Source: Pseudomonadota bacterium (GTDB taxonomy: Bacteria; Pseudomonadota; Alphaproteobacteria; Rhodobacterales; Rhodobacteraceae). Taken from it: a stretch of DNA of 34,916 bases. A model generated the notes under the pieces. The model did no database searches. It was not told the DNA's origin and worked only from the letters and a program-made list of their open reading frames with translations. Made by a program: the position numbers and the translations under genes. The stretch covers positions 1-34,916 of the forward strand of contig JBCCTH010000001.1 of NCBI GenBank assembly GCA_039198835.1. The letters are read 5' to 3'. Shown piece by piece: positions 1 through 11,010 of this stretch (the stretch's first letter is position 1; the number at the start of each line of letters is the position of its first letter).

Positions 1-261
1 GGCGACCGTGGCGCAAGAGGACCCAAAGGCGAAATAGGCGATCGCGGCGAGCAGGGCGAGAAAGGTGAGCGCGGAGAGCGCGGGCCCAAGGGCGAAAAAG
101 GTGATCGCGGCGAGAAAGGCGAACAAGGCGATCGCGGCGAGAAGGGTGAAAAGGGCGATAAGGGTGACACCGGACCGCGCGGACCCAAAGGCGATAAGGG
201 CGATAAGGGTGACAAGGGCGATAAAGGCGCGCCCGGCATGCCCGGAATGCCCGGCATGGGC
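1..261 (+). repeat. 9-bp-period coding repeat (Gly-X-Y collagen triplets), including GDK x4 at 190-225
   Basis: GGN codon every 9 nt; ggcgataag-type units in tandem. Confidence 0.9.
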
Positions 262-822
262 GGTGGCAAGAACATCGATATCGACATCGACATCGATGTG
301 GACTTTGACGTCGATGTCGCCATCAACCGCGGCGGTGGCCATTGCTATGGCGGCGGCGGCGTGAAGGGCGGCTCGGCAGATTTCGGTAGCGTGATGCAGA
401 AGATCACCTCTGAGATCAACGAGCTCATCGAGCAGCTGAAAGCCGCGATCTCGCAGATCATCACCAAGTTCCTGGAGCAGATCCAAGGCATCATGGATTC
501 CATGAAAGGTATGAACCAGATGGGTTATACCTACATGGGCAACATGGGCGCCATGGGCGGCGGGCATGATTGCAACACAGCCGCCGACAAGAAGCAGGCG
601 CTGATCGACTCCATGAAGAAAGAGATGGGCGGCACGGCCGACTCCATGCCTGACATGATGGCCGGTTCCATGAACCAGATTCAGGGCATGATGGTCAGCT
701 ACGCTCAGCGTCCGACAGATATGGGGGCCACGGATCTGCGCAAAGGCGCGGACGCCGTTCTCGATCAGCTTGGCCGCGATCTCATCGCCAAGGCGGAATG
801 GCAGCTCAAGACCGCAGCCTAA
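1..822 (+). CDS. Collagen-like (Gly-X-Y repeat) protein with Met/Gly-rich C-terminal region, 5'-partial; T3SS-associated
   Basis: Frame 1 is open from base 1 and reads [21 protein letters not shown]...[15 protein letters not shown], about 28-29 uninterrupted triplets. It continues in frame into track ORF 238..822 ([15 protein letters not shown], an amphipathic helix, a Met-rich tail). The true start lies upstream of the window. Confidence 0.85.
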
Positions 823-833
823 GGCGCAGGTTA

Positions 834-864
834 GCTCCGGGCGGGACATCCTTTCGCCCGGGGC
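834..864 (+). other. GC-rich stem-loop after the collagen-like gene (terminator or mRNA stabiliser)
   Basis: gctccgggcg (834-843) pairs with cgcccggggc (855-864) with one G-U pair; no clear U-tract follows. Confidence 0.5.
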
Positions 865-877
865 ACCAATCCTTCGA
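853..877 (+). promoter_or_regulatory. PIP/hrpII-box-like direct repeat TTCG-N16-TTCG
   Basis: TTCG 853-856, 16-nt spacer, TTCG 873-876, upstream of the 943 ORF in a T3SS cluster. No clean YANNNT -10 at the expected 30-32 nt spacing. Confidence 0.35.
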
Positions 878-942
878 TGCGTCCGAAACGGTCGTGCGCG
901 TCAAACCACGCAACACTAGCTCATGAACTCAGGAGAAAAATC

Positions 943-1119
943 ATGGCTCAAGTAAATCAGGCTGGTGCAAACCAGGATATCCAGGGCTCGGAAGAAAACC
1001 AGGAAGCGCTCGAGCAGCGTTTTCAGGACCTCTACGTCGCGATGATGGAAAAGAAAGTGTCGTTCAAGGAGGCCACAGAGCCCTTCCGGACCGACAACGA
1101 GAACTCCTCGAAGGGCTAA
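943..1119 (+). CDS. Small 58-aa T3SS-associated protein; candidate needle/pilus subunit
   Basis: Strong RBS AGGAGA 931-936, ATG 943; MAQVNQAGANQDIQGSEENQEALEQRFQDLYVAMMEKKVSFKEATEPFRTDNENSSKG; lies just before sctV and is flanked by hairpins. Function inferred from size and position only. Confidence 0.7.
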   Translation: MAQVNQAGANQDIQGSEENQEALEQRFQDLYVAMMEKKVSFKEATEPFRTDNENSSKG

Positions 1120-1140
1120 ACGCCCGACAGCAAGATCGCT

Positions 1141-1162
1141 GGAGGCGCCGCGATGCGCCTTC
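1141..1162 (+). other. Stem-loop between the small ORF and sctV
   Basis: ggaggcgc / gcgccttc 8-bp stem with one G-U pair. Confidence 0.4.
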
Positions 1163-1228
1163 GGCACCTCAAATTGTTCCTTTCGGCGCCTTGGGGGCTC
1201 GGTTGCCGTGTTATGAAGGTGGTGGAGA

Positions 1229-3331
1229 ATGCGTAAGGATATTGCGCTTATCCTGTTGATCCTCGCGATCCTCGCGTTGATCGTCGTGCCCCTCGGCCCG
1301 ACGATGCTCGATATATTGCTGTCGGTGAACCTGACGCTCTCGGTCTTGCTGTTGATCGTGGCGGTTTACCTTAAGCATCCGGCGGATTTTCCGACATTCC
1401 CGACTGTCATCCTGCTGGGCACTGCCTTCAGGCTGGCGCTTTCGATCTCGACGACCCGTCAGATTCTTTCAGAAGCGGAAGCGGGCGAAATCATCGAGAC
1501 GTTCGGGACCTTCGTGATCGGCGGGAACATCGCCATTGGTCTCATCGTCTTTCTGATCATCACGGTCTTCCAGTTCCTCGTCGTCACCAAAGGCGCGGAG
1601 CGGGTCGCCGAGGTCAGCGCGCGTTTCGCGCTTGATGCGCTTCCCGGCAAACAGATGTCGATCGATGCGGATCTGCGCGCGGAGGCGATCGACAAGCAGA
1701 CCGCTCAAGAGCGCCGTGAAGCGCTTGCCCGTGAAAGCCAGTTCTTCGGGGCGATGGACGGCGCGATGAAGTTCGTCAAAGGCGATGCCATCGCGGGCCT
1801 GATCATCATCTTCATCAACCTGATCGGCGGCATCTCGGTGGGGATGCTCGTTCTTGGGTTCACCTTCGAGGATGCTGTCGCCACCTACACGCTCCTGACG
1901 CTCGGCGACGGCCTTGTCGCGCAGCTTCCAGCGCTTCTGATGGCGCTTTGCGCGGGTATCGTGACGACCCGGGTCGATAGCACCGAGAACATCGATTTGG
2001 GCTCGGACATCTGGCGCGATCTCGCGAGCGACCCCCGCGTGCCAGCCGCCGCGGCGGGGATCGTTGTGCTTATCGGCCTGGTGCCGGGCTTTCCTTTTGT
2101 GAATTTCGCGGTGGGGGCGGGTGTTCTCCTCTTTGTCTCCTTCTCGATGCGCCAGGTCATCGCGGCGCAAGACCGCAAACTCGCTGAAGCGCCGCCCCTC
2201 GCTGAAGACCCGATGCAAGAGGCCGAGGAAGAAAGTGCCCCGGCTCCGGCGATCAATGAAGGCGTGCGCTCTGATCGGATCGTTTTGCGTATCGGCGATG
2301 AGCTCGCGAGCGAGCTCAACCTCATGCAGCTCGACACGACCGTTCAATCTTTCCTCGCGCGCTATGATCAGACCCGCGGTCTGGCCTTTGACCCCCCTTT
2401 CATCGATATCACGACCCGCAGTGGCCGGCATGGGCGGCTTTTTGAAGTCGTGCTCGATGAAGTGCCTGTTGCGTCCGAGACGATCCCCGAGAACTCTCTC
2501 CTTTTGCGGTGTGATGCGTCGCTGCTTGATGCGCTCGGGTGCGACCCCGACGATGTCAAACGCGTGCGCTGGCATGAATTCGACGGATATTTCGCGCCAC
2601 GCGAGGTTTGGCAGGGCGCGGTTGACGCGCAGCTCACGCCGATCCTCGTGGAAGAGCACATCGCCACGGTTGTGTTCCGGGTGTTTGAAACGAATGTGGG
2701 TGTTCTTTTCAGCGAAGATCACTTCAACCGGTTCCTCGAGCAACTCGCGCGGACATCGCCCCGCCAGCAAGCGCAGCTTGAGGCGCAATCTGACCGCACG
2801 ATCTTCTTCCAGACCCTGCGCTATCTCGCCGAAGATGGTGTGCCGCTGCGCCCGGTGCCGTTCATTGTCGATACCTATCTGACCTGGGTCCAGACCCATG
2901 GAAATGTGGGCGCGCTTGAGCTTTCAGAATACATGCGCGGCTCTCTCAAGCGTCAGATCTGTCATGCCATGGTCGGATCTCGCGACATGCTTGGCGTGGT
3001 TTTGCTTGATCCGGCGATCGAGAGCTACGCGCGCAATGCGGTGATCGAAACCGAAGGGGCCGACAGCCCCGCGGGCAGCGATGGCTTGCCGCTCGCGCCC
3101 CATATCTCCGAAGGCCTTCTGGGCCAGTTTCGCAAGCTCATATCTGGGCTGAGCGCGGATGATCCGTTCCCGGTCGTGATCGCTTCATCGAATATTAGGC
3201 GCAGATTGCGCAATTATCTCTCGGCCAATCGCATCGCGCTGCCTGTCATGGCACCGCACGAGCTTTCGCCCGAAGTCAATGTCCACCCCATCGCCCGGTT
3301 CCGCATGCCGGACATGGATGAGGCGTATTAA
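1229..3331 (+). CDS. sctV: T3SS major export gate protein SctV (LcrD/HrcV/FlhA family)
   Basis: N-terminal TM helices; FHIPEP motifs GAERVAEVSARFALDALPGKQMSIDADL and FFGAMDGAMKFVKGDAIAG; large cytoplasmic domain. Confidence 0.95.
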   Translation: MRKDIALILLILAILALIVVPLGPTMLDILLSVNLTLSVLLLIVAVYLKHPADFPTFPTVILLGTAFRLALSISTTRQILSEAEAGEIIETFGTFVIGGNIAIGLIVFLIITVFQFLVVTKGAERVAEVSARFALDALPGKQMSIDADLRAEAIDKQTAQERREALARESQFFGAMDGAMKFVKGDAIAGLIIIFINLIGGISVGMLVLGFTFEDAVATYTLLTLGDGLVAQLPALLMALCAGIVTTRVDSTENIDLGSDIWRDLASDPRVPAAAAGIVVLIGLVPGFPFVNFAVGAGVLLFVSFSMRQVIAAQDRKLAEAPPLAEDPMQEAEEESAPAPAINEGVRSDRIVLRIGDELASELNLMQLDTTVQSFLARYDQTRGLAFDPPFIDITTRSGRHGRLFEVVLDEVPVASETIPENSLLLRCDASLLDALGCDPDDVKRVRWHEFDGYFAPREVWQGAVDAQLTPILVEEHIATVVFRVFETNVGVLFSEDHFNRFLEQLARTSPRQQAQLEAQSDRTIFFQTLRYLAEDGVPLRPVPFIVDTYLTWVQTHGNVGALELSEYMRGSLKRQICHAMVGSRDMLGVVLLDPAIESYARNAVIETEGADSPAGSDGLPLAPHISEGLLGQFRKLISGLSADDPFPVVIASSNIRRRLRNYLSANRIALPVMAPHELSPEVNVHPIARFRMPDMDEAY

Positions 3332-3344
3332 GGAGGATCACCCA

Positions 3345-4091
3345 ATGCAGTGGTTGCGATCCAAACTGCTTTTGCTTTGCACTCTTTTCGCCCTCGCCGG
3401 CTGTCAGGAGGTGCTCTATTCCGAGCTGTCAGAAGAGGACGCCAACGAGATGGTGGCGCTCCTCGTGCTTTCGGGCATCCCGGCGAGCCGCCAAAACGAT
3501 GCGGGATCAGGATATTCGGTCCTCGTGGAGGAGGCCGATATCGCTGTGGCGGTCACTGTTCTCAAGAATTCCGGTCTGCCGCGCGCCAAGTTTGCCTCCA
3601 TGGGCGAGATTTTCGGCGATGTCGGCGTCGTGGGGACACCGTTTGAGGAGCGCGTGCGCTTTGCCTATGCGACAAATCAAGAGCTTTCGAACACCATTTC
3701 GCAGATCAAGGGTGTCGATAATGCGCGTGTCCATGTCGTGATCCCCGAGAAAAAGCGCTTCGGGTCCACGGATGAGCCCGCGTCTGCCTCGGTTGCGATC
3801 TTCCATGACCGCAGCTTTGAGCCGTCAAGCTATTCGCCGCGGATCAAGACGCTGATCGCCTTCGCCGTGCCTGATCTGGCGATTGAGAACATCTCGCTAA
3901 GTTTCTTTTTGTCGCCGGGCTTTGTGGTTCAGCCGCAGCTTGAAGCAGAGACAGCGCCCGGCGCGGCCATGGCGCAAGGGTATAACCTGCCCGGCGGACC
4001 GGCCGCTTTTCCCTTCTTCGGGGCGCTCCTTTTTCTCGTGCTTCTTTTCGTCGTGCGCCTTGTGATGCTCGCATGGCGCAGGGTCGGCTGA
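3345..4091 (+). CDS. sctJ: T3SS inner-membrane ring lipoprotein SctJ (YscJ/HrcJ)
   Basis: RBS AGGAGG 3331-3336, ATG 3345; lipobox LAGC; LYSELSEEDANEM, GLPR, ELSNTISQIKGVDNARVHV, SASV motifs; C-terminal TM helix; 248 aa, much shorter than FliF. Confidence 0.93.
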   Translation: MQWLRSKLLLLCTLFALAGCQEVLYSELSEEDANEMVALLVLSGIPASRQNDAGSGYSVLVEEADIAVAVTVLKNSGLPRAKFASMGEIFGDVGVVGTPFEERVRFAYATNQELSNTISQIKGVDNARVHVVIPEKKRFGSTDEPASASVAIFHDRSFEPSSYSPRIKTLIAFAVPDLAIENISLSFFLSPGFVVQPQLEAETAPGAAMAQGYNLPGGPAAFPFFGALLFLVLLFVVRLVMLAWRRVG

Positions 4092-4094
4092 CCC

Positions 4095-4718
4095 TTGGCT
4101 GAGGCGCAAACATATCCGTCGCTCAAGCGGTTTCTCGCGCCGAGCCTGGCTGATATCGGCTCAAAGCAGCGCGAGACCTTCGCCAATAGCTTTGGTGATG
4201 CCGCGCTGGGCCTTGCGATCCTGGAAAACAGACGCCTTGAGGAGCGGGTGCTCGAGCAGATCGTCAATAGTGAGTCCGCGCTTGACGCAAAGCAAATTGA
4301 GGGCACGCAAGACGCCGTTGTGATCGAGCTTCTCATGGCGCGTTCTGTGGCCGAACTTGAGCTTCTGATGGGCATGGTCTGGCATAAGCTGACCGTTCTT
4401 GACTGGCTCACCTGGGGGCGTTTGGGGCTTATGCTTCCGGGCGTTGATGGGGTTATCGCACGGATTGCCGTGAGCGCCGTTGATGCTAAAGCGCGCGCGG
4501 ATGCAGGCGCGCCCAACGAAGCGCTTGCAGATCTGCCGCCAAGCCATTTGCGCGAGGATGGCGCGCTCCTTTTGGCCTCGTGGATGGCGTCGCTGTCGCC
4601 CGAGCTTGCCGCCCGGCTTCAGCTCTTCGCCGCGATCGAACCGGGCCACCCCGATGATCGCTTCGCCCGGCTGGTGCAGATTTCAGCGCAGGCGCTTTAT
4701 GCGGCGGGGGCTTCCTGA
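4095..4718 (+). CDS. Hypothetical T3SS protein in the SctK position
   Basis: 207-aa helical ORF filling the gap between sctJ and sctL; TTG start; stop overlaps the sctL start (TGATG). Assignment by synteny only. Confidence 0.6.
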   Translation: MAEAQTYPSLKRFLAPSLADIGSKQRETFANSFGDAALGLAILENRRLEERVLEQIVNSESALDAKQIEGTQDAVVIELLMARSVAELELLMGMVWHKLTVLDWLTWGRLGLMLPGVDGVIARIAVSAVDAKARADAGAPNEALADLPPSHLREDGALLLASWMASLSPELAARLQLFAAIEPGHPDDRFARLVQISAQALYAAGAS

Positions 4719-5389
4719 TGGCGTTTGATAGCGCGGCTCCGATCCGCATCCACAAGGCAACGCTTCTGACCGCGAATGAATACGCCGCCCGGCAAGCCGA
4801 GGCGGAAGACATTCGCGTGGCCAAGTCAGAGGCCGAGCGCATCACGGAGGCCGCTCAGGCAGAGGCCGCCCGGATCGTCGCCGATGCCCAGGCGCGCGCC
4901 GATGAACTGGATGCCGAGATGCGGCGGATCGCCGATCAGGAGCTCGGACGCTTCGTTGAAACCCACGCCATCGACGAAGCCGCGCGCGCCGTGCAGCAAG
5001 TGCTCGAGACCTCAAGCGCGATGAAAAGTGATTTTGACGCGCTGGGGCCATGGTTCTCGGACTTCGTCGAGACCGCGCTCGAACGGATCACCGGTGAATT
5101 GCCCAAGCGCAAGCTTTGGGCGGGCATTATCCGGGAAGGTCTCAAAGACAGCCGCGAGCGCTGGTCGCTCACGCTGCGCTGCCATCCCAAGCTCGTTGAT
5201 CTGATGAACGAGGTGCTTGAGGAAGATGACAAACTCGCCGAGGCCATCGTCGCCGTTGAAGGCGATCGCGATCTCCCGCGCGAGGCGTGTTATCTCGTGA
5301 GCAAGAAGGGCGTTCTCGATATCTCTGTCAAAACCCAGGTGAAAACGCTCGTGCGCGCCATCGAATACATGACCGAGACGCCGCAATGA
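4718..5389 (+). CDS. sctL: T3SS stator SctL (HrpE/YscL/FliH family)
   Basis: Ala-rich coiled coil (AERITEAAQAEAARIVADAQARA); C-terminal LRCHP...GDRDL...CYLVSKKGVLDISV; directly precedes the ATPase. Confidence 0.85.
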   Translation: MAFDSAAPIRIHKATLLTANEYAARQAEAEDIRVAKSEAERITEAAQAEAARIVADAQARADELDAEMRRIADQELGRFVETHAIDEAARAVQQVLETSSAMKSDFDALGPWFSDFVETALERITGELPKRKLWAGIIREGLKDSRERWSLTLRCHPKLVDLMNEVLEEDDKLAEAIVAVEGDRDLPREACYLVSKKGVLDISVKTQVKTLVRAIEYMTETPQ

Positions 5390-6714
5390 CCCTCCCGCTC
5401 CATCTCCAGGAGCGCGCGGCGGCGCTCACCGGCCTAAGGGAGCGTTTGGGCGAGATGACGCTGGCAGAGCCGTTCGGCACGGTCGTGGATGTCAAAGGGC
5501 CGCTGGCGCGTGTGGCCGCGCCTGATTTCCGCGTCGGAGAGATGTGCGAGTTTCTCATGCCCGCCGGTCGCGCGCTTCTGGGCGAAGTCATCGGTCTTCA
5601 GGGTGATTTCACATTGGTGACCCCGCTCGGCCCCATAGAGGGGATCGGGCAGGGGACGATGGTCCGAAAGCGCAGCGAAGGGTTTACCATTCCGTTTTCG
5701 TCGGCGCTGCTCGGCCGCATGGTGACCGGCCTTGGCGAGGTGGTGGGCGAGCCGCTGGACGGGCCTGTGAAACGTGTCCCCGTGAAAGCCGCGCCGCCTG
5801 AGCCAGCCGACCGCGCGCCCATCGATACAGCGCTTCCCACCGGATTGCGCGTCATTGACGGGTGCATGACCCTTGCCCGAGGTCAGCGCGTTGCGGTCAT
5901 CGGCCCGCCTGGCGCGGGGAAATCGACGCTCCTTGCCGCCATCACCGCCCATTCTGATGTCGATGTCGTGGTCTTTGGCCTCATTGGCGAGCGCGGGCGC
6001 GAAATTCAGGAATTCGTCACGCGTAAAATCCCCGACGAGACGCGCCAAAAGCTCGTCGTGGTGGCCGCGCCCGCTGATAAGCCAGCGCTCGAACGGCTTT
6101 ATGCGGCCAATACCGCCACGGCCATCGCCGAGGGGTTCCGCGACCAGGGCAAATCCGTCCTTTTGGTAATTGATTCAATGACGCGGGTTGCCCGCGCCAT
6201 GCGCGAAGTCGGCCTTGCCGCCGGTGAGCCACCCACGCGCCGGGGCTATCCGGCTTCTGTTTTCGCGCAACTTCCAGAACTCATTGAGCGGCCCGGGCCA
6301 GCACCGGTGGGGGAGATCACGGCGATCTACTCGGTGCTGGCCGAGGGAGAGACAAGCTCAGACCCTATCGCCGAGGAAACCCGGTCGCTCGTGGATGGCC
6401 ATATCATCCTCGATGCCAGCATCGCGGCAGGCGGGCGCTACCCCGCCATTAACGTGACCGAGAGCCTGAGCCGCCTTATGGCCGAGGTTGTCGAGGGGCC
6501 GCATCAGCGCATGAATACCGCGATCCGGGCCTGCCTTGCGAAATATGCTGAAATCGAGCTTCTCGTGCAGATCGGCGAATATAGCGCCGGGCAGGACCCG
6601 GAGGCAGATCGCGCGCTCGAACTCTATCCCTATGTGCAAAAGTTCCTAAAGCAGGGCCCGGAAAAGCATGAGTTCGGCGAAACGCTTGAGTGGATGCGGG
6701 AGATGCTGGAATGA
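5386..6714 (+). CDS. sctN: T3SS ATPase SctN (YscN/FliI family)
   Basis: ATGA overlap with the sctL stop; Walker A GPPGAGKST; LIGERGREIQEF; LLVIDSMTRVARA; GEPPTRRGYP; DGHIIL; YPAINVTESLSRLM. Confidence 0.95.
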   Translation: MTLPLHLQERAAALTGLRERLGEMTLAEPFGTVVDVKGPLARVAAPDFRVGEMCEFLMPAGRALLGEVIGLQGDFTLVTPLGPIEGIGQGTMVRKRSEGFTIPFSSALLGRMVTGLGEVVGEPLDGPVKRVPVKAAPPEPADRAPIDTALPTGLRVIDGCMTLARGQRVAVIGPPGAGKSTLLAAITAHSDVDVVVFGLIGERGREIQEFVTRKIPDETRQKLVVVAAPADKPALERLYAANTATAIAEGFRDQGKSVLLVIDSMTRVARAMREVGLAAGEPPTRRGYPASVFAQLPELIERPGPAPVGEITAIYSVLAEGETSSDPIAEETRSLVDGHIILDASIAAGGRYPAINVTESLSRLMAEVVEGPHQRMNTAIRACLAKYAEIELLVQIGEYSAGQDPEADRALELYPYVQKFLKQGPEKHEFGETLEWMREMLE

Positions 6715-7202
6715 GCGGCGCCGTGAAGCTCACCCAGATCCGCGATCTGCGGGCGTTGAAGGTAGACCGGCTCACCGCGCGCGCGATCGATCTGCGCCGC
6801 GCCTTGGTCGCTGCCCAGCGCAATGCCGCAAACATGATCGAGCGCTATCGCGCGCTATGCGCGAGCGAGCCGGAAATGATTGATCGCTTGCTCGATCAAA
6901 CGCTGCGGATCACAGAACCCGCAGCCCGCCTCGCGGCGATGAACCATGCGGTGAACCGCGTGCGCGATGTGCGGGCCCAGGCCTATCGCGAGATGTCGGC
7001 CGCCGAGGCCGCTGTGATGGGCATTGAACAGGACATCAAGGAGACAAGCAGCGCGCTTGCGGAAGCGCAAGCGCATCTCGAGGGCATCGAGCGCGCATGT
7101 CAGGAGGCCGGGCGCAAAGGGCGCGCCCGCGCGGAAGACATCGAAGATGACAACGTCCTCGAAACCTTCGCCGGGCTAAGGGGAACGACCGCATGGGCAT
7201 GA
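6711..7202 (+). CDS. sctO: T3SS stalk protein SctO (YscO/FliJ-like coiled coil)
   Basis: 163-aa charged coiled-coil ORF coupled (ATGA) directly after the ATPase, the canonical position. Confidence 0.7.
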   Translation: MSGAVKLTQIRDLRALKVDRLTARAIDLRRALVAAQRNAANMIERYRALCASEPEMIDRLLDQTLRITEPAARLAAMNHAVNRVRDVRAQAYREMSAAEAAVMGIEQDIKETSSALAEAQAHLEGIERACQEAGRKGRARAEDIEDDNVLETFAGLRGTTAWA

Positions 7203-8236
7203 TCGATATCATCGACATGCGCGGCGGGCGTAGCCAGGCGAAGAAGCCCGTGACGCTCCCAAGCGTCGCGCGCAACGCCGCGGCCCCGCGAGGGGCCGTG
7301 GCGCGGCTCGATATTCGCGGCGAGGTGATCCTCCAGGGGGCAGAGATCGCTTATGAAGCCGCCTATATCGAGCCGCGAACCGCATGCCAGGGCGTTGTGA
7401 TCGATGCTGACATTGGCGGTCTGACTGTCACGCTCGCGCTTGAGGGCGATGCGCTCAGGGCGATCAGGCTTGATCGGCTCGCCGGTCTTTCGCTCAATCC
7501 TGCCTCCATGGCGCTGGCGGTTGAGCACCTTCTGACCTCTGACATCGACTTCTTTGAAGCCGCCAAGGATACCGCGCTCTCGCTGCGCGAGGTGTCACTC
7601 GGCCGGTTTGATACCAGTCAGGCCGTTCTCGCCCTTCGCCTGACCTGGCCCGATGGCACGGGCCTGACAGGCTATGTCTGGTCGCCGGACAATGCCGCGC
7701 TCGCTCGGGCTCTGGCCGAGCGCTTTGAAGCCAAGCGCCGCCCGGAAGCGTCTGGCCCGCGCGTCAGGGCCGCCATCATCGGGCCAATTGCCGAGATCCC
7801 CAGAAAGCGTTTGCGCAAGGTGACGAAGGGGGCTGTCTTTTGCCCTGCGCCCGGCTGGGCAAACCTCGCAGATGAGCTCTTTTTGCTGGTCAAGGGCGAG
7901 CATCTGATCCGCTTGACGCCCCATGGTCATGGCTATGCCACAATGGGAGACGAAACAGACATGCATTCTCTGGGTGGGGGCACCACAGGTGATGACATGA
8001 CAGACACTTCTCGAAAAGGGTCGCTGGCTAATCCCCGTGCCTTGGTGACGGTGGAACTCCATCGCCGTGACATGACCCTGGCCGAACTCAGCGATCTCCA
8101 GAAAGACGATATCCTCGATCTCGATCTTTCCGGCATCGAGACAGTCACGCTCGCGGCGGACGGCAAGCCCTTTGCAAAGGGCAAGCTCGTTCAGCTCGAT
8201 GACGTGCTGGGCGTCATGGTGTCAAAGCTGCTCTGA
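7193..8236 (+). CDS. sctQ: T3SS sorting-platform/C-ring protein SctQ (C-terminal SpoA domain)
   Basis: C-terminal VTVELHRRDMTLAELSDLQKDDILDL...VTLAADGKPFAKGKLVQLDDVLGVMV; precedes sctR; alternative start at 7199. Confidence 0.88.
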   Translation: MGMIDIIDMRGGRSQAKKPVTLPSVARNAAAPRGAVARLDIRGEVILQGAEIAYEAAYIEPRTACQGVVIDADIGGLTVTLALEGDALRAIRLDRLAGLSLNPASMALAVEHLLTSDIDFFEAAKDTALSLREVSLGRFDTSQAVLALRLTWPDGTGLTGYVWSPDNAALARALAERFEAKRRPEASGPRVRAAIIGPIAEIPRKRLRKVTKGAVFCPAPGWANLADELFLLVKGEHLIRLTPHGHGYATMGDETDMHSLGGGTTGDDMTDTSRKGSLANPRALVTVELHRRDMTLAELSDLQKDDILDLDLSGIETVTLAADGKPFAKGKLVQLDDVLGVMVSKLL

Positions 8237-8247
8237 GCGCGCGGCCC

Positions 8248-8886
8248 ATGGAAAACCTTTCGCCCCTCGTCGTAGGCTATCTGGCCTCCTTTTTTCTCGT
8301 GGCGCTGCTCGCGTTCACGGCGTTCATCAAGGTGTCGGTCGTGTTGATGATCGTGCGCAACGCGATCGGCCTCCAGCAGGTCCCTTCGAACATGATCGTG
8401 ATGGTGCTGGCGCTCTTTTTGTCGAGCTTCATCGCGCTTCCATCGATTGTCGCGGCGTTTGACGCCATCGAGGCCCTTGGCCCGCTTGAAAACTCAGCCG
8501 ATGCGCTGGTTGCGATCTGGACAGCAGGCCTCGCCCCGTTTCAGAGCTTCATTTCGCAGCATACAGACCCCCAGCATCTGGGCTTTTTCGTGGAAGTCGC
8601 GGGCGAGGTTTGGGAAGGGTCGGGCGTGACCGCCTCGCCTGACATGGCGATCATCCAAGTGCCCGCTTTCGTGCTCACGGAGCTGACGGCGGCGTTTGAG
8701 TTCGGCTTCCTGCTTTATCTGCCCTTCGTTGCCATCGATCTGGCTGTGACGGCGATCCTGATCGCGCTGGGCATGCAGCTTGTGCAGCCGACGATCATCT
8801 CGGTGCCGTTCAAGATCCTGCTCTTCGTGGCGGTTGATGGCTGGGCGCGTTTGGTGGAGGGTCTCATGCTCTCCTATACGGTGTGA
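8248..8886 (+). CDS. sctR: T3SS export apparatus SctR (YscR/FliP family)
   Basis: TAFIKVSVVLMIVRNAIGLQQVPSN; PAFVLTEL; GFLLYLPFVAIDL; ISVPFKILLFVAVDGW; 212 aa without the N-terminal signal extension of FliP. Confidence 0.95.
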   Translation: MENLSPLVVGYLASFFLVALLAFTAFIKVSVVLMIVRNAIGLQQVPSNMIVMVLALFLSSFIALPSIVAAFDAIEALGPLENSADALVAIWTAGLAPFQSFISQHTDPQHLGFFVEVAGEVWEGSGVTASPDMAIIQVPAFVLTELTAAFEFGFLLYLPFVAIDLAVTAILIALGMQLVQPTIISVPFKILLFVAVDGWARLVEGLMLSYTV

Positions 8887-8890
8887 ACCG

Positions 8891-9151
8891 ATGGAGGCTT
8901 ATGTTCAGTCGCTCGTTCAGTTCATGGCAGCGGTGGCGGTTCTTGCCGGTATCCCGTTGGCGGTGGCGACATGTGTCGGCCTGATCGTCAGCTTCTTTCA
9001 GGCCGTCACGCAAATCCAGGATCAGACGCTCGCGCAGACAGCGAAGATCGTCGCCATCGCTTTCACGTTTATCATTTTGGGGGGCGCGCTCATCGCGCCG
9101 CTCCTTGAAGGCACAACGCATCTCTTCGAGACATTCTGGCAAAGGCAATAG
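8891..9151 (+). CDS. sctS: T3SS export apparatus SctS (YscS/FliQ family)
   Basis: 86 aa from ATG 8891; VGLIVSFFQAVTQIQDQTL motif. Confidence 0.93.
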   Translation: MEAYVQSLVQFMAAVAVLAGIPLAVATCVGLIVSFFQAVTQIQDQTLAQTAKIVAIAFTFIILGGALIAPLLEGTTHLFETFWQRQ

Positions 9152-9160
9152 GGGGCGGGC

Positions 9161-9973
9161 TTGGATCAGTTCATCGCCACGCTTCTTGAATTGCCGATCG
9201 CTGCGTCGTTCTTTCTACTCTTGGCGGGCGTGTCGCGGGCGCTGGGCGCGATCTTCGGGCTTTGGGGGCTCTACTTCATCCTCGGCCCTGCGGTGATCGT
9301 GCGGACTGTTCTGGCGCTCATTCTCTCGGCCCCGATGATATTCGCGCAGATCGACAGCTATGTTGCGCTCAGCGAGGAAACCCAGCGCTTCGCGCTTCTC
9401 ACCATCCCGCTGCGCGAATTCATCATCGGCTTCGCCATTGGTCTTCTGATGTCGCTCCCATTTTTCGCGATCATGGGCGCGGCTCTCGTGATCGAGCAAT
9501 ATCGCGGAGATTTCAGCCCTGGCATAGAGGCCCCCGAAAATGCGCAGGTGGGCTCATACGGCGCGCTCAATATGATCATGGTGCTCTTCATTTTCGTAGA
9601 GCTTGGCGGTTTCATGATCCTCGTGGCGACGCTCTATGACAGCTACGCGCTCATTGAGCCGGGCGTGCCGGGGTTGAGCTTTCCGGCCGGTTTTTCTGCT
9701 GCGCTGGCGGGCATATTGCAGAATGTTTTCGTGACACTCATCGCGTTTGCTTTGCCTGTCCTTTTGCTTCTGATGTTGCTCGAATTCGCGATCAACATGG
9801 CCTCGCGCCTGGCCGACCAGATCCAACTCCCCTCGATTGATTTTCTCGCCAAGAACCTCGCGCTGCTCTTTGCCATGCCGGTGCTTGTTCTGGCCCTGTC
9901 GCGCGCGATGCAGGCGACGTTTGATAATGCGCCGCCGGTGCTCCCCCTGCTTGCGGAGATCATCGGCCTATGA
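9161..9973 (+). CDS. sctT: T3SS export apparatus SctT (YscT/FliR family)
   Basis: Hydrophobic 270 aa, TTG start; REFIIGFAIG...GAALVIEQYRG; LYDSY; between sctS and sctU. Confidence 0.88.
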   Translation: MDQFIATLLELPIAASFFLLLAGVSRALGAIFGLWGLYFILGPAVIVRTVLALILSAPMIFAQIDSYVALSEETQRFALLTIPLREFIIGFAIGLLMSLPFFAIMGAALVIEQYRGDFSPGIEAPENAQVGSYGALNMIMVLFIFVELGGFMILVATLYDSYALIEPGVPGLSFPAGFSAALAGILQNVFVTLIAFALPVLLLLMLLEFAINMASRLADQIQLPSIDFLAKNLALLFAMPVLVLALSRAMQATFDNAPPVLPLLAEIIGL

Positions 9974-11010
9974 GCGAAGACCAAAGCGAAGAAAAGACCG
10001 ACCCAGCCTCAGAGCGAAAGCTCAGGAAGCTGCGCGAGGATGCGATTATCCCCACGAGCCAGATGGGCACGAACTTCGTCGGCTTCGCGGCGGGTTTCGG
10101 AGTCTTACTCCTGCTCTTGCGGCAGATGATCGATGCGCTGGCTGACGGCTTTGATACCGCTTTCGCTTCGCTCAACTCAGAGGCCGCCAATGACGAAGGG
10201 CTGGTCTGGTATTTTCTGATCGAGATACATTCGCCAGTGGCCATGGTCATGCTCGCCGTCCTCGGCGCGGGCATCCTGTTTCGCATTCTGGTGAACAAGG
10301 GCTTTGTCTTCTCGCTCAAACAGGTGAGCCCGTCGCTCGACAAAGTGAACCCGGTGACAGGCTTCAAGAACCTCTTCAAGGGCCGCACCTTGACCGAATT
10401 TGCCGCGACGCTCACGCGGTTTTTGGTCCTTTTGGGGACGTTCGGTTATCTGGCGTGGTTCTGGTGGCCCACCTTGGCCAACCTTGATCTCTGCTCGCCC
10501 GCCTGCGCGCTGCCAGTGGCCTGGGACATCACCAAAGCGATCCTCATCGCGACGGCGGCTTTGCTTCTGGTATCGGTGGCTTTTGATGTCGGCATCCAGC
10601 AGGCGTTTTTCCTGATGGAGCACCGGATGACGAAGACCGAGGTCAAAAAGGAACTCAAAGAGATGCTGGGCCAGCCTGAAGTGCGCCAGGAGCGCAACCG
10701 TCTGCGCCGCGACAGCGCGGCGATGGCGGGCTCAGTCGGCGTGGCGGCGGCGACGGTCTATTTCCATTATGGCGATCGCGTCGTCGCGCTGGCGTTTGAT
10801 CCGATCAAAAACCCTCTCCCCAAGATCGCGGCAAAGAGCCGGGAGGCGCGACGCACCATCGAGATCCTCCAGGATCTCAACGGGCGCGGCGTGCCTGGCA
10901 TGGAAGATGAACAGATCGTTGAGGCCTGCGAACTCGTGCCAAATGGCAGCCCAGTACCGCGCGCGATCTTCGCGCCGTTGGCAACGCGCCTGCGCTATCT
11001 GTTGGGATAA
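9970..11010 (+). CDS. sctU: T3SS export switch protein SctU (YscU/FlhB family), lacking NPTH
   Basis: SEEKTDPASERKLRKLRE; KVNPVTGFKNLF; RMTKTEVKKELKEMLGQPEVR; VALAFDP..PLPKIAAK; ATGA overlap with sctT. Confidence 0.93.
   Translation: MSEDQSEEKTDPASERKLRKLREDAIIPTSQMGTNFVGFAAGFGVLLLLLRQMIDALADGFDTAFASLNSEAANDEGLVWYFLIEIHSPVAMVMLAVLGAGILFRILVNKGFVFSLKQVSPSLDKVNPVTGFKNLFKGRTLTEFAATLTRFLVLLGTFGYLAWFWWPTLANLDLCSPACALPVAWDITKAILIATAALLLVSVAFDVGIQQAFFLMEHRMTKTEVKKELKEMLGQPEVRQERNRLRRDSAAMAGSVGVAAATVYFHYGDRVVALAFDPIKNPLPKIAAKSREARRTIEILQDLNGRGVPGMEDEQIVEACELVPNGSPVPRAIFAPLATRLRYLLG

What the first reader, a model, noticed from the sequence alone, without database searches (positions are those of the whole stretch)
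1..11010. Atypical non-flagellar T3SS with a collagen-like partner in a Rhodobacteraceae-like genome
Seen: a tightly packed, co-oriented sctV-J-K?-L-N-O-Q-R-S-T-U block (ATGA/TGATG overlaps at 4718, 5386, 6711, 7199, 9970), preceded by a collagen-like gene and a 58-aa orphan. Established: a short SctJ lipoprotein instead of FliF, and the absence of motor, rod and hook genes, indicate an injectisome-type system. Inference: several canonical features are altered together (no NPTH, no sctP slot, reduced Met gasket). This could be a divergent T3SS subfamily that exports a collagen-like surface fibre or adhesin, or has a single substrate class, rather than performing staged injection. This is the best candidate for an undescribed system in the window.
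Basis: partly seen in the sequence, partly recalled or inferred. Interest (0 to 1): 0.9.

Follow-up and report, generated by a model that had tools for sequence, protein, structure and literature searches.

The report
Marine rhizobial-type injectisome with collagen partner
A marine bacterium carries a rare branch of the rhizobial type III secretion machine that has no outer-membrane pore gene of its own and sits beside a collagen-like protein that it likely exports, probably to help the cell hold on to a host or surface.

Summary
The gene block is real: sctV-J-K-L-N-O-Q-R-S-T-U, intact and non-flagellar. It is not a new family: it nests inside the rhizobial (Rhc) T3SS family (100/100), in a marine Rhodobacterales lineage probably sister to Rhc-III (92/93). 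The three 'altered' features are Rhc traits. No Rhc SctU examined keeps NPTH, Rhc systems lack sctP (PMC3574062), and the gasket varies across Rhc. The missing upstream genes (sctI, D, X, Y, rhcC1) lie at the end of contig C8, as in a relative's unbroken cluster. What appears new: (1) none of 12 lineage genomes has the pore half rhcC2 in its cluster, and the one closed genome has only a Tad-pilus secretin; (2) between rhcC1 and a conserved 58-aa likely pilin sits a signal-peptide-less collagen protein with a conserved helical tail (4 of 4 close genomes), with VWD, DUF642 or lectin-like cargo there in other members. No known translocator was found. Best reading: a T3SS that likely exports a pilus plus modular adhesin/harpin-like proteins, possibly through a borrowed Tad secretin. 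Export is untested.

The parts
1..822 (+). 3' part of the collagen-like protein, likely T3SS substrate: last 30 Gly-X-Y triplets (about 1-270), an acidic DxDxD stretch, then a conserved helical tail module (373-810). The 5' part very likely lies at the end of contig C8 (L001:19481-20000).
   Evidence: Pfam Collagen; full-length orthologs of 680-779 aa in G061, G062, G234; tail predicted as helices, pLDDT about 70-87; C8 end shares 43 12-mers with the window start against at most 2 for the other contig ends, 658 ends scored
943..1119 (+). 58-aa protein, likely pilus/needle subunit (SctF, NopA-like role)
   Evidence: 17 relatives at 62-86%; single helix after a flexible N-terminus; profile match to the inner-rod protein, hhalign 82%, E 1e-5; only weak match to Rhc NopA-slot proteins, 10%, E 0.003
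1229..3331 (+). sctV export gate
   Evidence: TIGR01399 591 bits vs FlhA 483
3345..4091 (+). sctJ inner-ring lipoprotein, 248 aa
   Evidence: TIGR02544 above cut-off; lipobox seen in sequence
4095..4718 (+). sctK (NolU-like) sorting-platform adaptor
   Evidence: iterated profile reaches the gene between sctJ and sctL in Rhc-I, II and III references
4718..5389 (+). sctL stator
   Evidence: TIGR02499 E 7e-17
5386..6714 (+). sctN ATPase
   Evidence: TIGR02546 487 bits; Pfam T3SS_ATPase_C
6711..7202 (+). sctO stalk, assigned by position and conservation in the lineage
   Evidence: follows sctN; homologs in G061, G062, G068, G234; no family hit
7193..8236 (+). sctQ cytoplasmic ring
   Evidence: TIGR02551 E 9e-15; Pfam FliMN_C
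8248..8886 (+). sctR, gasket MQL
8891..9151 (+). sctS
9161..9973 (+). sctT
   Evidence: TIGR01401 87 bits vs FliR 47
9970..11010 (+). sctU without NPTH, as in other Rhc systems

Best explanation
This is a rhizobial-family (Rhc) type III secretion system from a distinct marine Rhodobacterales lineage, which likely builds a thin pilus from the 58-aa protein and likely exports the collagen-like protein and related modular proteins to the cell surface to attach to a host or matrix. Shown: the export core, sctK and the 58-aa gene in the window; sctI, D, X, Y and the N-terminal secretin half rhcC1 in the same order as in relatives; no rhcC2 in any cluster read; the collagen gene in a fixed slot, without a signal peptide, with a tail module found only beside this system. 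Inferred: SctN drives export through R/S/T/U/V with no SctU autocleavage and no SctP ruler, as in other Rhc systems; the collagen protein leaves unfolded via its N-terminus, trimerises outside into a long stalk (over 100 triplets in relatives, some with EF-hand inserts), and is held or engages membranes by its harpin-like amphipathic tail. Least certain (about even odds): RhcC1 links SctD to the chromosomal Tad-pilus secretin to make the outer-membrane pore.
For: Tree of SctN+R+U: window inside Rhc 100/100, lineage 100/100, sister to Rhc-III 92/93 (same placement with 72 and 30 rows). Unbroken cluster u-I-D-X-Y-C1-collagen-F-V-J-K-L-N-O-Q-R-S-T-U in G061. Collagen in the slot in G000, G061, G062, G234. 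The tail profile built from three genomes found the fourth (G234, E 4e-12) and 0 of the other 399 genomes sampled from the order. Among 1.84 billion representatives it gave 3 hits: the window's own, a VWD-domain protein and a 64-aa fragment; the VWD protein's accession number lies exactly 12 from its SctU in two records, the count expected for the same slot. All 4 collagens lack a hydrophobic signal peptide (max 11-residue hydropathy -0.55 to 0.42; Sec controls 2.2 and 2.8) and carry a D-x-F-x-x-hydrophobic motif also in 5 of 10 inner-rod proteins and 47 of 2122 background ORFs (motif chosen after seeing the sequences). In an Rhc-III-like cluster the gene beside rhcC1 is a Gly-rich, HrpW-like protein with similar Leu/Gln-rich helices (L053; likeness by eye). 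RhcC2 derives from a Tad secretin and RhcC1 was proposed as linker to SctD (PMC3459982, passages). Closed genome G234 keeps both T3SS operons 1.3 Mb apart, intact, with one secretin, in the Tad locus.
Against: No secretion, expression or binding data. The tail has no sequence or fold match to a characterised harpin, translocator or pilus part, so 'harpin-like' rests on composition and position. Collagen is absent from the rhcC1-sctV interval in 7 of 7 more distant lineage clusters read, so it is not needed by the machine. A secretin is present in 33 of 36 same-family genomes in which this T3SS was not found, so co-occurrence with Tad is no support for borrowing; G069 has the T3SS core but no Tad secretin was found (incomplete MAG). 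The link of the 58-aa protein to NopA is weak. The C8-C1 join is not bridged by any laid contig.
Confidence: 0.55

Rival explanations
1. It is an ordinary effector-injecting Rhc system; the collagen protein is a harpin-type helper that spans a thick host wall or mucus and assists translocation, and the effectors are simply unrecognised.
For: Complete Rhc core including SctX/Y and SctO. Rhc-I systems with the same lack of NPTH and SctP deliver effectors (PMC3973906, passages). Two-domain harpins are known translocation helpers (same paper). The slot corresponds to an HrpW-like gene in L053.
Against: tblastn with NopX, two HrpK-like proteins and HrpW found nothing in G000 at E 0.01 (genome 93.8% complete). 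The candidate substrates found all carry adhesion-type domains: collagen, VWD, DUF642, DUF4114/lectin-like. No effector was searched for by a dedicated predictor.
Confidence: 0.3
2. Without a pore of its own the machine ends in the periplasm or is a decaying relic, and the collagen protein never reaches the outside by this route.
For: No rhcC2 in 12 genomes, one of them closed. Patchy distribution: 0 of 60 relatives, 3 of 400 family genomes, 1 of 11 in G234's genus. Secretin-less Myxo systems exist (PMC3459982).
Against: All ORFs intact across genomes at 44-77% identity. RhcC1, whose known role is to join an outer-membrane secretin, is kept in 11 of 12 genomes (not seen in the stretch fetched from G069). 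The likely filament subunit is the best conserved gene. G234 keeps both distant operons.
Confidence: 0.12
3. It is a reduced flagellar export apparatus.
For: G000 has no other FlhA/FlhB/FliP match, and several core genes score only modestly higher on Sct than on Fli models.
Against: Tree placement inside Rhc; SctJ, SctD, SctX/Y and RhcC1 are injectisome-specific.
Confidence: 0.01

Closest known systems
Rhc-III T3SS of Rhizobium etli CFN42 p42d (Gazi 2012, PMC3574062; Tampakaki 2014, PMC3973906)
   Same: Probable sister group (92/93); rhcC1 present and rhcC2 absent; no sctP; gasket MQM vs MQL; small pilin-like gene; Gly-rich helper gene in the cluster
   Different: R. etli SctU stops before the NPTH position (about 265 aa) while this one is 346 aa; R. 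etli has HrpW and two HrpK-like genes, not found here; this system has SctX/Y and a collagen gene; different gene order; long branches on both sides
Rhc-I (S. fredii/S. alkalisoli tts) and Rhc-II (T3SS-2 of NGR234b and Pseudomonas)
   Same: J-K-L-N-O-Q-R-S-T order, RhcC1, Y4yQ-type SctD, TPR SctY, no NPTH, no sctP/sctW slot
   Different: Both carry rhcC2 in or near the cluster; Rhc-I has TtsI and NopX; SctU only about 30% identical
Two-domain harpins (HrpW, PopW, HopAK1)
   Same: No signal peptide, Gly-rich, amphipathic Leu/Gln/Met helices joined to an extracellular binding domain, encoded in the T3SS cluster (harpin features partly recalled; two-domain layout from PMC3973906)
   Different: Partner domain is collagen or VWD, not pectate lyase; helical module is C-terminal; no detectable sequence homology; 0-3 Cys present
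Bacterial collagen-like adhesins (Scl1/Scl2, Lcl)
   Same: Charged Gly-X-Y repeats; weak NCBIfam matches confined to the repeat
   Different: Far below the family cut-offs; no LPXTG anchor or signal peptide; tied to a T3SS
Myxococcales secretin-less T3SS (PMC3459982)
   Same: No secretin pore in the locus
   Different: Myxo lacks SctF and any secretin part; this system keeps RhcC1 and a likely filament subunit and sits inside Rhc (Myxo was not in my tree)

Membership tests
Non-flagellar T3SS | Core sctJ,N,Q,R,S,T,U,V closer to Sct than Fli profiles; no rod, hook or motor genes | tested here: met
   (SctS/FliQ tied)
Non-flagellar T3SS | Secretin pore (SctC) encoded with the system | tested here: not met
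   only the N-terminal half; sole PF00263 match in G000 and in closed G234 is the Tad secretin
Rhc family | Core proteins group with Rhc-I/II/III | tested here: met
   100/100; SPI1, Hrp1, Chlamydia and Myxo references were not in the tree
Rhc family | Split secretin: stand-alone RhcC1 | tested here: met
   211-aa ORF L001:18839-19474 joins NolW and the N-terminus of AscC in an iterated profile; it lies on contig C8
Rhc family | No sctP between sctO and sctQ | tested here: met
   O and Q overlap; family trait in PMC3574062
Rhc-I / Rhc-II | Tad-derived rhcC2 in the cluster | tested here: not met
   0 of 12 lineage genomes; 11 are drafts
Rhc-III | rhcC2 absent | tested here: met
   as above
Rhc-III | hrpK-like and hrpW-like genes; nests within the R. 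etli clade | tested here: not met
   no tblastn hit in G000; separate 100/100 clades
SctF / NopA pilin (58-aa ORF) | Small, helical, T3SS-encoded, polymerises | tested here: inconclusive
   size, helix and conservation fit; rod-protein match 82%, NopA-slot match 10%; polymerisation not testable
Harpin (collagen tail) | Homology to or fold of a known harpin | tested here: inconclusive
   no Pfam, profile or fold match
Harpin (collagen tail) | T3SS-secreted, heat-stable, membrane-active | not testable with these tools
   needs experiment
Flagellar export apparatus | FliF, NPTH-bearing FlhB, grouping with Fli/Flh proteins | tested here: not met

The most novel reading that the evidence does not exclude
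A lineage of type III systems that has given up injection and become an adhesin-display machine: it exports collagen fibres and swappable VWD/lectin-like proteins onto or along a type III pilus, and crosses the outer membrane by sharing the Tad-pilus secretin in trans through RhcC1, a living form of the step by which rhizobial systems are thought to have captured a Tad secretin.
Probability: 0.2. Interest if true: 0.85.

Novelty: new variant of a known kind. Interest (0 to 1): 0.52.

Why it matters
Two questions become testable in one organism with a closed genome (G234). First, how an Rhc system without rhcC2 crosses the outer membrane, which the papers I read leave open for R. etli; sharing a secretin between two machines would bear on how secretins were recruited. 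Second, whether a type III system can export a collagen triple-helix protein as a surface fibre; two searches for this returned one paper each, neither on such a system by its listing. It also shows in passing that SctU autocleavage at NPTH seems dispensable across the Rhc family.

Tried and rejected
Joint loss of NPTH, sctP and gasket as a mark of a new subfamily: rejected. Flagellar origin: rejected. C33's GET repeat as a second collagen: rejected, it is an antisense reading of a simple repeat at a contig end. Word-based search with the tail found nothing; ESM Atlas gave no usable hit for tail or 58-aa ORF. Fold searches of the tail model gave only generic helical bundles (best Foldseek E 0.25; best Z 8.2). 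HrpK (PF16937) and TyeA (TIGR02511) family searches rang nowhere, controls included, so they show nothing. No RNA holder listed. Contigs of two runs did not bridge C8 and C1. The 30-row careful tree did not finish; its quick tree and an 18-row careful tree are used. No AU test was run. Earlier findings: three look-ups, nothing relevant. Supplements of the papers were not read; they may list members of this lineage.
Full report
Observation. The window is the start of contig C1 of G000, a 2.83-Mb, 329-contig assembly, 93.8% complete. Two runs that hold the stretch are marine metagenomes of one study. The block 1229-11010 encodes intact SctV, J, K, L, N, O, Q, R, S, T and U with the stated start/stop overlaps. 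NCBIfam ranks the injectisome model above the flagellar one for each gene that has both, narrowly for SctS. G000 has no other FlhA, FliP or FlhB match. GC of the block (0.61) equals the genome's (0.616). Housekeeping genes follow from 11024.

The missing half. The collagen ORF runs off the contig start. Contig C8 ends inside a collagen repeat and shares 43 12-mers with the window start, against at most 2 for any other of 658 contig ends. No laid contig bridges the two, so the join is inferred. C8's last 3.8 kb encode a 48-aa acidic ORF, a 127-aa protein, SctD (weak YscD and Y4YQ_C hits), a 137-aa protein, a TPR protein, a 211-aa protein and the collagen N-terminus. Iterated profiles tie the TPR protein to AscY and Rhc SctY, the 211-aa protein to NolW/RhcC1 and the N-terminus of AscC, and the window's 'K?' to the NolU slot. 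The 127-aa protein matches the genes upstream of sctJ in 43 Rhc loci (hhalign 80%, E 1e-5) and is read as inner rod. The 137-aa protein is called SctX by position only. G061 carries the whole series unbroken in this order.

Family. A SctU search returned 18 proteins at 43-99% identity, then a drop to 35% or less (38 hits). Trees of SctN+R+U with 72, 30 and 18 rows put the window inside a clade with Rhc-I, II and III (100/100 in the careful tree), in a lineage of marine Rhodobacterales-type genomes (100/100; 11 of 72 rows), sister to Rhc-III at 92/93 with long branches. Six duplicate or partial loci were left out of the 72-row set. R. etli p42d is Rhc-III per PMC3574062; my Rhc-I and Rhc-II labels for S. 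alkalisoli and Phyllobacterium come from gene content and order. SPI1, Hrp1, Chlamydia and Myxo were not sampled.

The 'altered' features. NPxH occurs in 27 of 196 SctU/FlhB sequences, including the flagellar, Ysc, Hrp2 and SPI2-like references, but in 0 of 80 genome loci chosen by likeness to the query and in none of the Rhc-I, Rhc-II, pKON1 or Klebsiella-plasmid references; R. etli SctU ends before the site. I did not find this stated in print (searches; listings only). Absence of sctP is common to all Rhc subgroups (PMC3574062, parts 2-4 of the text read; PMC3973906, passages). The gasket reads MMM in 32 of 71 SctR, MSM in Rhc-I, MQM in R. etli, MQL here, LNQ in Hrp2 Mycetohabitans. None of the three marks a new subfamily.

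No pore of its own. Secretin searches in 12 lineage genomes (G000, G061-G070, G234) found no rhcC2 in a cluster. Eleven have a secretin in a Tad locus (CpaB, CpaC, OmpA-type lipoprotein, CpaE); G069 has only a divergent 717-aa one; the extra ones in G063, G064 and G067 group with SctC/GspD-like outgroups, one beside a second T3SS. G234 is closed and 100% complete: rhcC1-collagen-F-V...U at 1.49 Mb, the I-D-X-Y operon at 2.82 Mb, one secretin, in the Tad locus. RhcC2 itself derives from a Tad secretin, with RhcC1 proposed as linker to SctD (PMC3459982, passages), so borrowing is plausible. But 33 of 36 same-family relatives in which this T3SS was not found also have a secretin, so co-occurrence proves nothing. 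Lack of rhcC2 is already known for Rhc-III.

The 58-aa ORF. It is more conserved than most core genes (62-86%), predicted as one helix after a flexible N-terminus (pLDDT 65), and resembles the C-terminal helix of the rod protein (82%, E 1e-5) but only weakly the Rhc proteins in the NopA slot (10%). NopA pilins are 63-71 aa and helical (PMC3973906). I read it as SctF at about 75%. Its profile found 3 of 400 family genomes: G061, G062, G234.

The collagen protein. Full-length orthologs are 735, 680 and 779 aa in G061, G062 and G234, with long Gly-X-Y runs and EF-hand-like inserts. None of the four has a hydrophobic signal peptide; all four carry an N-terminal motif shared with 5 of 10 rod proteins and 47 of 2122 background ORFs, a post hoc pattern that missed 4 of 5 other candidate substrates. 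The conserved part is the tail: an amphipathic helix, a Gly-rich spacer and a helical hairpin, with no fold match. A three-genome tail profile found G234 and none of 399 other genomes of the order, and three proteins among 1.84 billion. One of them, P0058, joins the tail to a VWD domain; its accession is 12 from its SctU in two records, the slot's position, though its start may be mis-called. In seven more distant clusters the interval has no collagen: four show nothing recognisable, G067 has DUF642 plus acidic repeats, G068 a 150-aa protein, G070 a DUF4114/lectin-like domain fused to a copy of its own pilin-like ORF. Related signal-less VWD proteins occur at the start of C44 in G000 (73% to P0058), next to the sctI operon in G062 (1010 aa) and in G234. 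No NopX, HrpK or HrpW homolog was found in G000.

Mechanism. Shown: an intact Rhc apparatus, RhcC1 without RhcC2, a conserved small helical protein, and a slot for modular proteins with adhesion-type domains. Inferred: unswitched export of rod, pilin and these proteins; trimerisation of the collagen stalk outside; attachment to a host or matrix. Guessed at even odds: use of the Tad secretin. The main rival is ordinary injection with the collagen protein as harpin-type helper (0.3); a relic or periplasm-ended machine is less likely (0.12).

Novelty. New variant of a known kind. Searches for such a system in Rhodobacteraceae or for collagen-harpin pairs listed none; PMC2702493 (passages) notes T3SS as uncommon in marine bacteria; PMC7643967 (passages) covers atypical Bradyrhizobium clusters only. 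The library lacks most subscription papers, and supplements were not read.

Noticed in passing
L205:8566-9473 (G070): A DUF4114/lectin-like domain is fused to a near-copy of the adjacent 41-aa pilin-like ORF, suggesting a minor pilin that displays a domain on the type III pilus.
   Followed up: partly
L075:478-1419 (Rhodomicrobium udaipurense): VWD domain with a pilin-like helical tail next to rhcC1 in another Rhc branch; the same VWD subfamily as P0058.
   Followed up: partly
G000 contig C44:3-1589: 5'-truncated protein with DxDxD strands, VWD and a C-terminal domain 67% identical to the 1010-aa protein beside the sctI operon of G062; second candidate substrate.
   Followed up: partly
G000 contig C8:99-20823 (L001 up to 14447): An RTX-like giant adhesin ORF of at least 5888 aa with a type I secretion ABC transporter and membrane-fusion protein lies about 2 kb before the T3SS upstream operon.
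   Followed up: no
L185, L189, L047, L053 sctU: Rhc-III SctU proteins are about 265 aa and end before the NPTH position, so they lack most of the cytoplasmic domain.
   Followed up: no
L196 (NZ_CP142387.1): An Rhc-II-type T3SS cluster on a conjugative Klebsiella pneumoniae plasmid from a human source.
   Followed up: no
L015:11060-11752, L020:10981-11613, L030:18745-19374: A LuxR/NarL-type response regulator sits beside sctU or sctV in three sister clusters; none is adjacent in the window.
   Followed up: no
L201 (G069:C113): A divergent 717-aa Tad-related secretin outside a Tad locus, the only secretin found in that genome; candidate dedicated pore.
   Followed up: no
L188 (Paracoccus pKON1): A deep-branching Rhc cluster with its own RhcC2-like secretin, a lytic transglycosylase and a 1324-aa unknown gene.
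   Followed up: no
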